Assembly: GCA_964016885.1 (NCBI GenBank)
Contig: OZ024744.1
Location: 83,762,001-83,826,000, forward strand
Origin: Eledone cirrhosa
Taxonomy: Eukaryota
Direction: 5' to 3'
DNA: 64,000 nucleotides
Shown here: one piece after another, positions 5,514 through 62,554 of the stretch
How positions within the stretch are numbered: the stretch's first letter is position 1
Layout of the letters: the number at the start of each line of letters is the position of its first letter
Position numbers and translations under genes: made by a program
Notes under the pieces: generated by a model
What the model was told of the DNA's origin: nothing
The model's input: only the letters and a program-made list of their open reading frames with translations
The model's database searches: none

Positions 5514-6417
5514 ATATATATATATATATATATATATATATATATCCCTGAAATATGTATAAATATATATGGTATCCCTGAAATATGTATAATGAAATAA
5601 ATATGGTTTTATAAATATAGTTTCCATTTGTTTAATATCGTATATCTACTGCAAAAACTTGTCGAGTGCTTTATATCGGTTATAAAATATTTACTTGTTG
5701 TAACCCAACAATTTTAAATAAAACTTTTGCATATATATATATATATATATATATATATATATATATATATAATTTATTGACAACTAAAGCATCGCCAGAG
5801 CATTCATTCTGAATCTGATATTATACCACTTAAATACATCTCAATTGATAGTAATCACAGTAAGTAAGGTAATGAATACATTAGTAGAGCGCAAACATCA
5901 AATTTTACATAGAAATGGTTTCTACAGGACTAGAACTGTTTTATATAGGACGTACCTGATGATTTCTTTCGAATGAAACAGTTCTAGTCCCCTAGAAGAT
6001 ATTTCTATAATAAATATTTGATAAGGAGCAAATCACCCAGAAACAATTATCGATTGGCTTCTCTCAGCTATCGCTACGGTTACGTTGTCAAACACTGCAT
6101 GGTGGTTATGAGGCTATTTGTTTGCAAACAAACCGAATATTAATAATTGTTTCTACGTTAGGCACAAGGCCAAAACCGAATATTAATAATATTATGATAT
6201 TATTATATTATCGTTATTACTATATTATCATTATTCACTCACGAATGCATTTAGGTATCCACCATGTTAAGAGCGAAAATAAATTTTGTTTTTTTAACTT
6301 TTGGCAAAGCCGGCCGTAAAATCGCTCGTTATGCAAATGAGGCTAATCAGCCAATGTATACAGTTCAGAATACTATGTATTCTCTGCAGTTCCAATGTGT
6401 AGAAATGATCAGAATAC

Positions 6418-6463
6418 ACAATATTGATAGGGATCAAAACATTCCGAAACAATTGTCGATTGT
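6418..6463 (+). ncRNA. Near-intact type I hammerhead ribozyme, U3-A8 core with one core nucleotide missing
   Basis: ACAATA TTGATA GGGAT caaaac ATTCC GAAA CAATTG TC GATTGT. A more degenerate paralogue lies about 405 bp upstream (6012-6056). Confidence 0.55.
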
Positions 6464-6667
6464 TTTCTTTCATCTACAACTGGAACAAAAGAATGACGTC
6501 GTGATCTAAGATGTGGTGTTTATGTGGCTGTTTACTTATAAACAAACCGAATATTAATAATATTATGATGTTATAATAATTTATTAATATTCACTCACGA
6601 ATACATATATATATATATAGAGAGAGAGAGAGGTATTTTAATGTCATATGTTATATCCATAATAACG

Positions 6668-6740
6668 ATTCTATCTGATGAGCGATATCAGACGTTTCTG
6701 TGAGAATCGTCTAACTTCGCGAAACCTTGGGTAATGGAAT
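6668..6740 (+). ncRNA. Type I hammerhead ribozyme with extended stem II
   Basis: ATTCTAT CTGATGA GCGA..AGACG..CGTCT..TCGC GAAA CC ttg GG TA ATGGAAT: canonical core, all three stems pair, GUA site. Confidence 0.75.
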
Positions 6741-6949
6741 ATTGTGCTGTTTATCACATAATTAAATAGCTCTGTACTATACATAGAGCACTCTTATTTT
6801 ATTTACCATTTCCATGGAAATACTTGACACACTCACACACACGCATGCACACACACACACACACACACACACGCACGCACATACACACACGGACATATAT
6901 ATATATATGATATATATTAGGATATAATATTATTATTATTCAGTCACAT

Positions 6950-7225
6950 ATAAATATACAATGGGAGGAAACATAATAGTACGCCTGATGATGTCACAGG
7001 TGTGTGAGGAAAGAACTTTGATAGATGATATATAGATATTCATATGTATATATATATTTTTTTAACTGTTGGTCAATCAATGATAAACATTGATTGCCAG
7101 CTAAATTAACTATAGGGATGGAAAATATATGGAGGCGAAAACCAATCAAAACGAAACAGGAAGTGTGCTTTATTGTATATTTTTGGCAATATTACAACAG
7201 TAAGACCTTCCCAAATATGACAATA
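6950..7225 (+). mobile_element. Solo Penelope-like 3' tail/pLTR fragment, homologous to 49837-50160
   Basis: Aligns by eye with the reverse complement of about 49880-50160 (ggaggaaacataatagtac.., ttggtcaatcaatgataaacattga, ggcaatatt..gacc). It contains a decayed ctgatga motif. Confidence 0.6.
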
Positions 7226-7744
7226 TATATATATATATATATATATATATATATATATATATATATATATATATATATATATATATACATATATAGTATA
7301 AAAGAGAAAACACAGGTAAGCATTAAGAGAAGGATTTTATCCAGGTATTTTCTCTTTTATACTTTATACTCCAAGATTGAACGGAATTCTTACAAACTTG
7401 TGGAGTTACCCGTAACCGTACGTTGAAACCATCCATGAAACTGGCTTTCCAAGAACTGGATCACAATAAGCAATCTTTTGCTTCTCTAACAATATACACA
7501 CACACATATATATATATATATATATATATCCTGTATTAACTTTTTCCCTCCGCCTATAGACATTTTCTCACTTGCTTCAAATGCGTCGGAGAAAGGATCC
7601 TTTCATCCTGAGGTGTCTCTTGGAAAGCCGATTTGCCTCACAACGATGATGCATTTTTATAATTCTCAGTTCAAGACGGATCGGCGAAACTGCTGTCGGG
7701 ATTTGAGGAAAAATAGGTATAGTCATGTATGTCCTCATATTTTA

Positions 7745-7965
7745 CACACACACATACACACACACACACACACACACACACACACACACACACACACACA
7801 CACACACACACACAAGCAGACACACACACACACACACACACACACTCACACACACACACACACACACACACACACACACACACACACACACACACACACA
7901 CACACACACACACACACACACACACACACACATATATATATATATATATATATATATATATATAT
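7745..7965. repeat. (CA)n + (TA)n microsatellite
   Basis: Direct inspection. Confidence 0.9.
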
Positions 7966-59378: not shown

Positions 59379-59716
59379 ATATATATATATATATATATAT
59401 ATACATGTATATACATATATATATACATATGTATATATATACATATATATATATATATATATATATATATATATATATATATATATATATATATATATAT
59501 ACATGTATATACATATATACATATGTATATACATATATATATACATATGTATATATATATATATATACATATATATATACATATATATATATATATATAT
59601 ATTTATATATATATATATATATATATATATATATATATATATATATATATATATATATATATATATATATATATATATATATATATATATATATATATAT
59701 ATATATATATATATAT

Positions 59717-60085
59717 TCAAAATTAGAATTGGGGCTCTGAAATAGCAATATATATATGAATGTATATATAATGTATTTTGCAATACACTTTATGCTTAAT
59801 TAAAAGCATTTTGAAGACCGTATGCTATTGTTTTAGAGTAGTGACAAACTCACTTACTTTAATCTCAGTAAACAAGGGGAGATAAGCCGACCAGGCTTTG
59901 TTTCGCATTTATTGATGCTTATCAAGGCTAACTACTCCCTCCTGTCTACTGCGATCACTGATGTTATATTTCTTGTTTGCTGAGATTAAAGTAAGTGAGT
60001 TTGTCACTACTCTAAAACAATAGCATACGGTCTTCAAAATGCTTTTAATTAAGCATAAAGTGTATTGCAAAATACATTATATATA
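59717..60085. repeat. Hammerhead-bearing fold-back element (about 110-bp inverted arms) in (TA)n
   Basis: About 59765-59875 versus 59973-60085. Confidence 0.8.
59885..59929 (-). ncRNA. Type I hammerhead, U3-A8 variant
   Basis: AGCC TTGATAA GCAT caataa ATGC GAAA C aaagcctg G TC GGCT. Confidence 0.75.
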
Positions 60086-60156
60086 TATACATACATATAT
60101 ATATATATATATATATATATATATATATATATATATATATATATATATATATATAT

Positions 60157-60520
60157 AAAAATGGTGAAGCAACGAAAAAATGAGGAAGAAGGAGTCAAGT
60201 CCCAAATTTCTATGAATTTAAATTCGGTGAAATCGTGAACGAGAGAGGATAAAGACCATCAAACCTGGTTGAAATGTGAGCAAGGAAGGAATTTCGCACA
60301 GGTCTAACGGGAGGAAGAAGGGGATATATATATATATATATATATATATATATCCCCTTCTTCCTCCCGTTAGACCTGTGCGAAATTCCTTCCTTGCTCA
60401 CATTTCAACCAGGTTTGATGGTCTTTATCCTCTCTCGTTCACGATTTCACCGAATTTAAATTCATAGAAATTTGGGACTTGACTCCTTCTTCCTCATTTT
60501 TTCGTTGCTTCACCATTTTT
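60157..60520. repeat. 364-bp perfect palindrome centred on (TA)n; family also at about 56420-56760 and 60860-61155
   Basis: The same 63-aa ORF appears on both strands. Arms are symmetric about 60338/9. Confidence 0.9.
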
Positions 60521-61469
60521 GTTTGTTTACACTCGCGGCCCCTTTATTTACGTATCCCAACGACTTTTTTAGCCGTTGCTCGCACAAACCGGAGGTATAT
60601 GGTCTTTAAAGCGATGAAATACCAATGATGTTTGGAAAATCACTGATGAAGGACTAACTTTATTCATATGTAACCCATTAGCAACCCCGCAGCACGTTTA
60701 TTTCATATTTACACATATATTTCCCCTGCTGTTACCCGTCTATTTCGTTCTTACTGCTTCCTCTTTCTCTGTATATTTACCCTCTCTAGCAGTCACTCTC
60801 TCTGTTAGACTCTTCCTCACCCTTCACTCACTCATTCACCGTTACTACCTCTCCTCCTCATCCTTCTTCCCGTTTGACCTGTGCGTAATTCTTTTCTTTC
60901 GCACGCTTGGCCAGACCGGTCGGCATTTTTTCTCTCTCTCGTCTACGATTTCACAGAACTTATGTTTACCGAATTCACAGACTAGACCCCTTCTTCCTCC
61001 CGTTAGACCTGTGCGAAATTCCTTCCTTGCTTACATTCCAACCAGGTTTGATGGTCTTTATTCTCTCTCGTTCACGATTTCACCGAATTTAAATTCATAG
61101 AAATTTGGGACTTGACTCCTTCTTCCTCACTTTTCGTTGCTTCACCATTTTTGTTACTAATATACAGAATGTTTGTTTGTTAACGGTTATCAAGATTGCT
61201 TATCCCTTCGCTTCTGCCGAGACTTGTAGAAGTTCGATTCTTATAGAATTCCAGTGATGATTAAGAGCTGATTAAGCAGAGCAGTTGCCTGTCCAGCAAA
61301 AATTAGTAATTAGTATCAGTGCTCTGAAATAACGATGTATGTATGAATGTATGTATAGTATATTTGATAATATACTGTCTGTTTATTTTAAAACATTTTG
61401 AACATCATTTGCTATGAGTTTTAAAGTAGTGACTATGTCACTTACTTTGTCTCGGCAAAAACAAAGGGG

Positions 61470-61516
61470 AGCAACCGACAGCTGTTTCTCGTTTATTAAC
61501 GATTATCAAGATTGCT
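61470..61516 (-). ncRNA. Minimal type I hammerhead, U3-A8 variant (diverged inverted copy at 61599-61645 on +)
   Basis: AGCAATC TTGATAA TCGTT aata AACGA GAAA CAGCTG TC GGTTGCT. Confidence 0.85.
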
Positions 61517-62554
61517 TATCCCTTTCATACACACATCGCTATTACTATACTGATACTAATCTCTAATTTTTGCACTGATACTAAGAAGCGGAGGGATAAG
61601 CAATCTTGATAACCGTTAACAAACGAGAAACAGCTATCGGTTGCTTCCCTTTGTTTTTTGCCGAGACGAAGTAAGTGAGATAATCACTACTTTAAAACTC
61701 ATAGCGAATGGTCTTCAATCAAAATGTTTTAAAATAAACATTCAGTATATTATCAACTATACTATACATAAATTCATATATATATGAAAAAGTATGACCC
61801 GATGGGAGAGTTCAAGCCGTTTCGACGGCTATTTCAGTCCAGAAATAGCCGTCGAAACGGCTTGAGCTCTGCCGTCGGGGGTCACACTTTTTCCTATTAC
61901 GCACTCTACTTACTACCATAAGTATTGAGTACTCTGGTGCGTTGTGGTCCATCTGGTTCCTTACCACAATTCCTTCGTTATATATATATATATATATTTA
62001 AAATATGGGGCGGGGGCACAGTACAAAGACAATGGAGGAAGTAAGGAAAAGACAGACAGTCACATCTCCTCAGTTAACCTCTGGAAATCATTACGGTTTC
62101 GTTGCATTAAGTTTGTTATCGTTCATTCTAGTGTATATTGTGACATAACAAAACAAGGAGAGACGAGTTATGCCTTTCGGCGAATTACACAAATATAGAT
62201 AAATATCTATCCCGAGTGCGTCAACTGACTCAGAAGAGAGAGAATGGTGCACGAATGCTCAGCCAATGGAAAGAAATATAGAAAGGAGGGATATAGTAAA
62301 ACAGAAATGAATGAAAAGGACTCTACTATTGTCTAAATTGCAGTCAAAGAAGAATGACACCGAGACGTTGAAAATGTAAAACGACAGACTGGGTTGTGTG
62401 ATGTCTAGGTGTGTGTGTGTGTGTGTGTGTGTGTGTGTGTATGTGTGTGTGTGTGTGTGTGTGTGTGTGTGTGTGTGTGTGTGTGTGTGTGTGCGCGCGC
62501 GCGCGCGTGTGTGTGTGTGTGTGTGTGTGTGTGCGTGTGTGTAATAATAAAAAT

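What the first reader, a model, noticed from the sequence alone, without database searches (positions are those of the whole stretch)
5950..61650. Hammerhead hot spot: at least seven sequence families in 64 kb
Seen: motifs at 6418, 6668, 41192 (x9), 45681, 51455, 57329 (x3), 59885 and 61470/61599, with different stems around a conserved core. Stem III is repeatedly a palindrome (ACAAUUGU, ACAUGU, ACCGGU, ACUAGU, ACAGCUGU). Nearly all sit in short islands between (TA)n tracts. Inference: an ecosystem of non-autonomous ribozyme elements parasitising Penelope RT/GIY-YIG, remnants of which lie at 8.9-10 kb and 49.8-51.2 kb. If this density is genome-wide, the ribozyme load would be very large and could cut intronic pre-mRNA.
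Basis: partly seen in the sequence, partly recalled or inferred. Interest (0 to 1): 0.8.

Follow-up and report, generated by a model that had tools for sequence, protein, structure and literature searches.

The report
Genome-wide flood of Penelope-borne hammerheads
The self-cutting-RNA (hammerhead) motifs in this window are real and belong to a load of about 160,000 across the genome; they sit in Penelope-like jumping genes and in small non-coding repeats that these likely copy into (TA)n tracts as two back-to-back arms, probably from circular RNA, a known kind of element at an unusual scale whose cutting is untested here.

Summary
The motifs are real: 13 strict type I hammerheads against 0-1 in 80 shuffles. 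Five cited copies are degenerate. The window is only mildly enriched: 6 independent insertions against 2.5 expected (P=0.04), with flanks at genome average.

The load is genome-wide. Two exact patterns give 102,540 and 62,785 matches (controls 122 and 4,815), and a 790-kb sample extrapolates to 1.7x10^5. The commonest families are ends of autonomous Hydra-clade Penelope-like elements. The window's 528- and 466-bp arrays are non-coding tandem retrozymes.

Their insertions are two divergent arms between (TA)n tracts. The arms end at two fixed sites, cross the cleavage site repeatedly and share one haplotype. This is the Penelope 'tail' signature and fits reverse transcription around a circle; an uncleaved multimer is the rival. 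A hairpin follows 11 of 15 priming ends checked, in retrozymes and Hydra elements alike. One Hydra family carries a U4A core (15,732 pattern matches).

The element class and the Penelope link are published. Cleavage, expression and the intron claim are untested.

The parts
5897..6022 (.). Fold-back insertion of a very abundant hammerhead family (A0); decayed core at 5956(+), stem I 5' strand lost at the inversion
   Evidence: (homologues in 38 of 79 sample loci)
6013..6561 (+). Two old tandem U3A8-type copies 403 nt apart (cores near 6019 and 6418-6424), about 70% alike, both degenerate; stem III ACAAUUGU in the second
6668..6740 (+). Intact type I hammerhead (family B), C3G8, long stem II, near-palindromic stem III; dispersed family, often fold-back
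   Evidence: (2,216 first-look candidates, 40 scored)
7923..10068 (-). 5'-truncated Hydra-clade Penelope-like element: RT end, CxCx5C linker, C-terminal GIY-YIG (frameshifted), 3' terminal repeat with the U4A motif near 8026, and an inverted RT piece at 9769-10020(+)
   Evidence: (57,240 first-look candidates, 150 scored)
13075..13173 (+).
40756..40921 (.). Fold-back pair of Hydra terminal-repeat ends (U4A motif at 40825 minus); the 528 array sits in its (TA)n tail
40949..44609 (-). 528-bp retrozyme, left arm, 6.9 units, seven hammerheads (five strict); RNA-sense 3' end at unit position 253 counted from the cleavage site
44607..45585 (+). 528-bp retrozyme, right arm, 1.85 units, two strict hammerheads; 3' end at unit position 318; 3-nt overlap with the left arm
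45640..45856 (+). Short linear U3A8 element (family D), hammerhead 45681-45718, stem III ACCGGU; copies share a 5' end about 45 nt upstream of the core
   Evidence: (850 candidates, 40 scored)
45865..46131 (.). Truncated fold-back of the Hydra terminal repeat with its tail
49502..49730 (.). Fold-back of family Y, the 3' half of a U3A8 hammerhead seen whole in L119; another copy at 61768-62000
49830..51170 (-). Broken Penelope-like 3' part with a CX4CXXC linker and GIY-YIG (Neptune/Nematis-like by motif), decayed terminal hammerhead region, 118-bp inverted arm
51455..51712 (+). Family E piece, hammerhead 51456-51523 with looped stem III; other copies show a circularly permuted unit of about 510 nt
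   Evidence: (3,014 candidates, 40 scored)
57103..58201 (-). 466-bp retrozyme, left arm, 2.4 units, two strict hammerheads (stem III ACUAGU); 3' end at unit position 233
58200..58648 (+). 466-bp retrozyme, right arm, 449 nt, hammerhead with U16.1 changed; 3' end at unit position 302
59720..60085 (-). Family G fold-back, U3A8 core at 59925 with weak stem III; related to family H and to the 311-bp tandem family
61270..61790 (.). Family H fold-back pair: strict U3A8 hammerhead 61470-61516(-) and degenerate copy near 61599-61652(+)

Best explanation
These are type I hammerhead motifs carried by Penelope-like retroelements and by small non-coding retrozyme repeats that Penelope-like RT-endonucleases (Hydra clade the likeliest for the 528-bp and E families) likely copy into (TA)n tracts, probably from a circular RNA. 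Shown in the DNA: each young 528- or 466-bp insertion is (TA)n, a reversed arm, a forward arm, (TA)n. The arms end at two fixed unit positions 65-69 nt apart, have variable inner ends joined over a few shared bases, run through the cleavage site several times without a scar, and carry one haplotype. Inferred steps: (1) read-through transcripts of tandem units self-cleave as double hammerheads through the palindromic stem III; (2) monomers are ligated to circles; (3) a Penelope-like RT-GIY-YIG protein nicks both strands of a (TA)n tract and primes reverse transcription at two internal sites, one per strand, in several families just 5' of an RCUC...GAGY hairpin; (4) RT runs round the circle, giving multi-unit arms; (5) the two cDNAs are joined at their inner ends. 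The same chemistry on the autonomous RNA leaves solo or fold-back terminal repeats, which make up most of the genome-wide load. Odds: real hammerheads 0.95; Penelope-type mobilisation 0.9; circular template for the arrays 0.6; Hydra as the mobiliser of the 528-bp family 0.55.
For: Shuffle controls. A scan that did not fix position 4 still returned U4 in 65 of 75 sample hits. Two-strand cofolding gives the double-hammerhead helices for 4 of 6 sites tried.

Paired ends: 253 with 318 in 15 of 19 records of the 528 family; about 233 with about 302 in all 7 loci of the 466 family with both outer ends in view; 140 with 166 in 5 of 6 loci of a 311-bp family. This matches the two RT start sites that define the Penelope tail (PMC11167929, parts 1-2 of 4 read).

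Opposite arms differ no more than units of one arm, and far less than loci do: 0.0013/0.0032/0.0087 (528), 0.0058/0.0052/0.0278 (466), 0.0002/0.0002/0.0064 (311) substitutions per site. Private variants sit on both arms in L130 and L131. E copies wrap past their own priming region in 5 of 24 loci. Units fold as circles well below shuffles (-125 vs -97, -155 vs -89, -67 vs -50 kcal/mol).

Intact 713-aa Hydra ORFs and 775/821-aa relatives flanked by the palindromic hammerheads. The hairpin follows 11 of 15 ends checked, against a chance rate of 0.0066.
Against: No cleavage or RNA was observed. Monomer folds are not more stable than shuffles (11 sites, z from 0.09 to -1.37), and the 528 and E fragments do not cofold into a full double hammerhead.

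For the one Penelope-like element tested in vitro, uncleaved RNA was the dominant substrate and cleavage was not needed (PMC11167929). Only 1 of 9 Xenopus retrozyme dimers cleaved in vitro (10.64898/2026.07.22.740005).

A 30-unit 466 array shows recurring mosaic variants, so local amplification also acts (L145-146); L125 and L126 have variants in only some units. One 311 locus has the long end on both arms (L132).

The hairpin was defined after looking and is absent at the 466, 311 and D short ends and the F4 long end. Array loci came from top-scoring hits (39 of 1,134 candidates scored), so they lean to young, long copies. Pfam and PDB searches give the Hydra proteins no hit; their clade rests on motifs.
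Confidence: 0.72

Rival explanations
1. Same Penelope machinery and two start sites, but the template is an uncleaved linear multimer transcribed from a uniform source array; the hammerheads are slow or protein-dependent and circles are by-products.
For: PMC11167929: unprocessed RNA was the dominant substrate and the hammerhead needed the protein. Family D has a fixed 5' end upstream of its core, and A0, Y and Hydra ends invert inside or upstream of the hammerhead, so uncleaved linear RNA is copied in those families. Uniform long arrays exist as possible sources (L142, L143).
Against: Copying linear multimers cannot lengthen an array or re-homogenise it, yet several distinct haplotypes are each uniform across both arms (L143, L144, L153). 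E copies wrap round although none of 24 loci showed a full tandem of hammerheads.
Confidence: 0.3
2. The arrays arose by local DNA amplification (unequal exchange) of single Penelope terminal repeats after insertion, as proposed for vertebrate retrozymes.
For: Proposed in 10.64898/2026.07.22.740005 (Discussion read). The 30-unit array L145-146 has interspersed shared variants.
Against: Near-identical multi-unit arrays lie on many contigs. Both inverted arms are multi-unit in many loci and as alike as neighbouring units, and the outer ends are fixed.
Confidence: 0.1
3. The fold-back structure is an assembly artefact or MITE-like DNA transposition, and the motifs are incidental.
For: A perfect 361-bp palindrome centred on a TA run lies at 60157-60517. 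Such palindromes can be artefacts (general knowledge).
Against: The arms are asymmetric by a family-specific tail, differ in length between loci and accumulate substitutions. Contigs of a sequencing run break into TA repeats at the same two unit positions (possibly the same sample). Motif excess over controls is more than 800-fold for the tighter pattern.
Confidence: 0.03

Closest known systems
Metazoan non-LTR retrozymes (Cervera and de la Pena 2020, PMC7229834, passages read; review PMC7761336, passages read)
   Same: Non-coding tandem units with one type I hammerhead each, low GC, highly self-paired as circles, co-occurring with Penelope-like elements; circle-templated tandem cDNA and Penelope mobilisation were proposed there.
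   Different: Units of 466-528 bp exceed the 170-400 nt circles reported. The two-arm inverted insertion with paired fixed ends in (TA)n is not described ('inverted' and 'microsatellite' occur 0 times in the main text). The load here (about 1.6x10^5 in 3.0 Gb) exceeds the 126,247 reported for axolotl. Expression is not shown here.
[quoted passage not shown]
   Same: Concludes that retrozymes derive from and use Penelope-like elements; unit lengths 51-972 bp cover these.
   Different: 35 species, mostly vertebrates, no molluscs named; argues from co-occurrence and phylogeny and invokes local amplification. No mention of tails or inversions.
[quoted passage not shown]
   Same: Palindromic helix III, dimeric activity, U3-A8 covariation, dispersed single motifs and opposite-strand pairs 100-700 bp apart from truncated elements.
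   Different: Counts quoted there are thousands per genome (about 2,000-9,000 minimal motifs). A fixed U4A core was not seen in the passages read; supplements were not read.
Hydra clade of C-terminal EN+ Penelope-like elements (Craig et al. 2021, 10.1101/2021.04.23.441226 and PMC8557442, passages read)
   Same: DKT motif, CxCx5C linker, C-terminal GIY-YIG, (TA)n targeting, hammerheads, inverted 5'-truncated copy and tail.
   Different: Described from a small number of families; here one query gives 57,240 first-look candidates. Tails are 60-140 nt rather than 30-40.
Poseidon element of Anolis, internal two-site initiation (Frangieh et al. 2024, PMC11167929, parts 1-2 of 4 read)
   Same: Two internal RT start sites bound the tail; both target strands are cut and extended; AT-rich target.
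   Different: There the start site is not homologous to the cut DNA and both strands use either site. Here the ends fall at TA-containing positions and the two sites are used one per arm in 27 of 28 loci with both ends clearly in view.

Membership tests
Type I hammerhead ribozyme | Core C3/U3-U4-G5-A6-N7-G8/A8-A9, G12-A13-A14-A15.1, U16.1-H17 with three helices, stem I open | tested here: met
   13 strict motifs against 0-1 in 80 shuffles; five cited copies are degenerate
Type I hammerhead ribozyme | Reaches an Rfam hammerhead gathering score | tested here: not met
   Best 36.5 bits against 52 (HH9), 466 family only; these variants are poorly covered by the models
Type I hammerhead ribozyme | Self-cleavage 3' of H17 | not testable with these tools
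   Needs in vitro transcription or RNA end mapping
Dimeric (double) hammerhead | Palindromic stem III that pairs between two copies | tested here: inconclusive
   Cofolding gives the full double-hammerhead helices for 4 of 6 sites, not for the 528 or E fragments; prediction only
Non-LTR retrozyme (528- and 466-bp arrays) | Tandem non-coding units, one type I hammerhead per unit, GC below 45-50% | tested here: met
Non-LTR retrozyme (528- and 466-bp arrays) | Dispersed mobile copies | tested here: met
   88-100% copies on many contigs
Non-LTR retrozyme (528- and 466-bp arrays) | Expressed as circular RNA | not testable with these tools
   No RNA data were available (see Tried and rejected); the circular fold is only predicted
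Penelope-like insertion signature | Inverted 5'-truncated copy with a tail on one end only | tested here: met
Hydra-clade Penelope-like element (8-10 kb remnant) | DKT motif, CxCx5C linker, C-terminal GIY-YIG, single ORF, (TA)n target | tested here: met
   Read in intact relatives L115-L119, 76-85% identical to the window remnant
Hydra-clade Penelope-like element (8-10 kb remnant) | Placement in the Hydra clade by RT phylogeny | not tested
   No named reference proteins were in hand; Pfam and PDB gave no hit
Hydra-clade Penelope-like element (8-10 kb remnant) | Canonical CUGANGA hammerhead in the terminal repeat | tested here: not met
   This family has A at position 4 with all three helices kept; sister Hydra-like families have the canonical core
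Naiad Penelope-like element (considered first) | N-terminal endonuclease, DKA motif, no hammerhead | tested here: not met
   Endonuclease is C-terminal and the motif is DKT
Type III hammerhead (considered for 5956) | Stem III open, stems I and II closed | tested here: not met
   The apparent 12-bp stem III is the inverted arm; homologues are type I

The most novel reading that the evidence does not exclude
This genome holds the largest hammerhead load among the counts I could read (about 1.6-2x10^5), and its insertions record the missing step of the retrozyme cycle: a Hydra-clade RT-endonuclease recognises a shared RCUC...GAGY hairpin, primes once from each strand of a (TA)n target at two set positions on one RNA circle, and rolls round it. 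The mobiliser's own hammerhead has a fixed U4A core, which is either an active natural variant or a family-wide silenced ribozyme that lets the autonomous RNA stay uncut.
Probability: 0.4. Interest if true: 0.75.

Novelty: new member of a known kind. Interest (0 to 1): 0.55.

Why it matters
How animal retrozymes move is proposed but not shown; the 2026 preprint leaves the mechanism open. This genome offers a concrete pair to test: intact 713-aa Hydra ORFs and a young 528-nt retrozyme with mapped start sites and a candidate recognition hairpin, which fits a published in vitro assay. One motif per about 18 kb also makes it a natural place to ask whether sense-strand hammerheads are depleted from introns. 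The class itself, the palindromic stem III and the U3A8 core are known, so surprise is moderate.

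Tried and rejected
RNA evidence: no RNA holder was listed for window:44610-45580 (four runs of unknown kind from one study). This says nothing on expression. Two runs were laid as contigs only.

Naiad: my first label for the 9-kb remnant, withdrawn. Type III reading of 5956: rejected. Rfam microRNA and snoRNA rows are TA-repeat noise below gathering scores. Monomer folding energy is uninformative. A U3A8 pattern with a 9-nt stem III gave 744 matches against 152 controls and does not cover families D or H, so there is no genome-wide U3A8 count.

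No autonomous ORF was found joined upstream of families B, D or E: 19, 24 and 24 loci gave one stray Penelope-like hit each (output partly cut). The host-gene screen of the window plus 80 kb found only mobile-element ORFs. It was crude (frames of 45+ codons, GC above 38%) and can miss short exons. The homologue search on the Hydra ORF gave 1,180 relatives, nearly all unnamed, so no taxon could be read. Automatic end-finding failed for 4 of 12 pairs; three were redone, G was not.

Literature searches for prior description: hammerhead+octopus, cephalopod+ribozyme+hammerhead (one giant squid paper lists 235 Rfam hammerheads), retrozyme+Penelope, Penelope tail and inversion terms, mollusc retrozyme terms (none), U4A (listing only), octopus repeats (that paper never mentions ribozymes). 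Lunse et al. 2017 on Penelope hammerhead variants is not held and may already describe core variants such as U4A. Supplements of all papers were unseen. Earlier scan notes held nothing for this genome or sequence.

Full report
Setting. The window is G000:C28:83762001-83826000 of a 3.0-Gb, AT-rich animal genome. Its repeats resemble those of octopods; that label is recalled and comes from no call.

Observation. I wrote a type I hammerhead descriptor. The strict form finds 13 motifs in the window, against 0 in 40 global and 1 in 40 local dinucleotide shuffles. Five copies are degenerate (6418, 42312, 42840, 58316, 61599), and 59885 has only a 2-bp stem III. Rfam sees only the 466-bp family, below its gathering score. 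Monomer folds are unremarkable. Two-strand folding gives the double-hammerhead helices for 4 of 6 sites, as expected for the palindromic stem III described in PMC4209133.

Density. I took 79 evenly spaced 10-kb stretches (one more requested stretch did not exist). They hold 44 strict motifs in 23 stretches, with 0-1 in eight shuffles. This extrapolates to 1.7x10^5 (bootstrap 1.0-2.4x10^5). Exact genome-wide patterns agree: 102,540 matches (control 122) and 62,785 (control 4,815). The patterns do not test stems I and II, but in the sample 30 of 32 matches to the first were strict, and 9 of 15 to the second (13 of 15 with relaxed rules). U3A8, looped-stem-III and U4A families come on top. The axolotl count in PMC7229834 is 126,247, in a genome of 28 Gb by the preprint. 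I did not see a total for schistosomes, whose density may be similar or higher (recalled).

Hot spot. The window's 13 motifs are 3.6 times the mean, and 0.8% of resampled sets of 6-7 stretches reach 13. They come from 6 insertions against 2.5 expected (P=0.043), in a window chosen for this feature. The flanking 80 kb hold 5. The excess is mostly two arrays.

What carries the motifs. [quoted passage not shown] Its relatives have intact 713-aa ORFs with DKT and YRDD motifs, which fits the Hydra clade of Craig et al. (passages read). Pfam and PDB gave no hit, so the label rests on motifs. The commonest genome-wide hammerheads flank Hydra-like ORFs: 9 of 14 regions picked for motif pairs 1-5 kb apart, including 775- and 821-aa frames. 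Much of the load is therefore truncated ends of autonomous elements. In the window, the 528- and 466-bp arrays are non-coding tandem units. Family E is a circularly permuted unit of about 510 nt. Family D is a short element with a shared 5' end (the query included that end). G and H relate to a 311-bp tandem family. The mobiliser of B is unknown.

Insertion anatomy. Numbered from the cleavage site, 528-bp insertions run (TA)n, reversed arm, forward arm, (TA)n. One arm ends at 253 and the other at 318, both on an internal TATA, in 15 of 19 records. Of the other four, one is cut by a contig start, one has a decayed end, one has a stub arm and one is interrupted and duplicated. Inner ends vary and mostly overlap by a few bases. 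The 466 family pairs about 233 with about 302 in 7 of 7 loci with both ends in view. The 311 family pairs 140 with 166 in 5 of 6; the sixth has the long end twice. Solo fold-backs of other families show the same long and short ends. Contigs of one run break into TA repeats at 253 and 317-318 (possibly the same sample). This is the Penelope tail, explained by two internal RT start sites in PMC11167929. These loci came from top hits and lean young.

Template. Arms cross the cleavage site up to 30 times without a scar, so the template was not a linear monomer. Opposite arms are as alike as neighbours in one arm, and loci differ several-fold more. Distinct haplotypes are each uniform across both arms, which suggests a single-unit template read repeatedly, that is a circle. 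The units also fold as stable circles (15 shuffles each). Against this, uncleaved RNA was the main substrate in the Anolis assay, families D, A0, Y and Hydra are copied from uncleaved RNA, and one 30-unit array shows mosaic variants from later local exchange. I put the circle at 0.6.

Candidate signal. A hairpin RCUC...GAGY starts within about 9 nt after both ends of the 528, E and Hydra repeats and after the short ends of F0, F2, F4, A0 and Y. It is absent after the D, 466 and 311 short ends and the F4 long end: 11 of 15 (chance 0.0066). It was defined post hoc. It is the only sequence link I found between the 528/E retrozymes and Hydra elements.

U4A motif. The terminal repeat of the 713-aa Hydra family keeps all three helices but has A at position 4. 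This holds in 16 of 21 scored copies, the other five differing elsewhere or at other core positions. The pattern with position 4 left open has 15,732 matches (control 0), and all 100 listed have A. PMC3088659 (passages read) mentions a natural U4C variant with reduced in vitro activity. I found no U4A report's listing, but could not read Lunse et al. 2017. Activity is unknown.

Intron claim. No host exon was found in 144 kb by a crude screen, so this is untested. The preprint reports about 43% of Xenopus retrozyme copies in introns, depleted after normalising for size.

Verdict. These are new members of known kinds (non-LTR retrozymes and Penelope terminal hammerheads). The added value is the scale, the paired two-arm architecture that ties retrozyme arrays to Penelope chemistry, and a testable enzyme-RNA pair. 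Interest 0.55.

Noticed in passing
window:8026(-), 13086(+), 40825(-)/40834(+), 45926(+); L115-L119: Hydra-family terminal repeat with a hammerhead-like motif fixed for U4A; 15,732 exact pattern matches genome-wide.
   Followed up: partly
window:44994-45070; L156:1245-1340; L239:990-1105: RCUC...GAGY hairpin just after the priming ends in the 528, E and Hydra repeats and five other families, with A-U/G-C exchange at its first pair; candidate RT-endonuclease recognition signal.
   Followed up: partly
window:19459-24836(-), with broken copies at 25.5-35.3 kb: L1/Tx1-like LINE with open ORF1 (642 aa) and ORF2 (1,150 aa; endonuclease, RT, zf-RVT).
   Followed up: no
window:36896-38976(-): Helitron-like Pif1 helicase fragment with STPR repeats.
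   Followed up: no
window:13805-16458(+): Broken non-LTR RT element (RVT_1).
   Followed up: no
window:60157-60517: Perfect 361-bp palindrome centred on a TA run; the same family recurs at 56515-56756 and 60863-61155 as fold-backs, and no hammerhead was found in it by my scans.
   Followed up: partly
window:404-752(+) and 63174-63522(-): Dispersed 350-bp repeat (89% alike) holding two CUGANGA-like words but passing no hammerhead descriptor.
   Followed up: no
L145-L146 (G000:C1:5738093-5752746): 466-bp array of about 30 units on one arm with interspersed shared variants, pointing to local amplification after insertion.
   Followed up: partly
L049:1547-2460(+): Relative of the 49.8-51.2 kb Penelope-like remnant whose 3' region carries a minimal hammerhead-like motif without a stem III.
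   Followed up: no
window:40756-46131: Nesting: the 528 array, family D and Hydra ends each sit in the (TA)n tract next to another insertion, which would explain local clumping (23 of 79 sample stretches hold all 44 motifs).
   Followed up: partly
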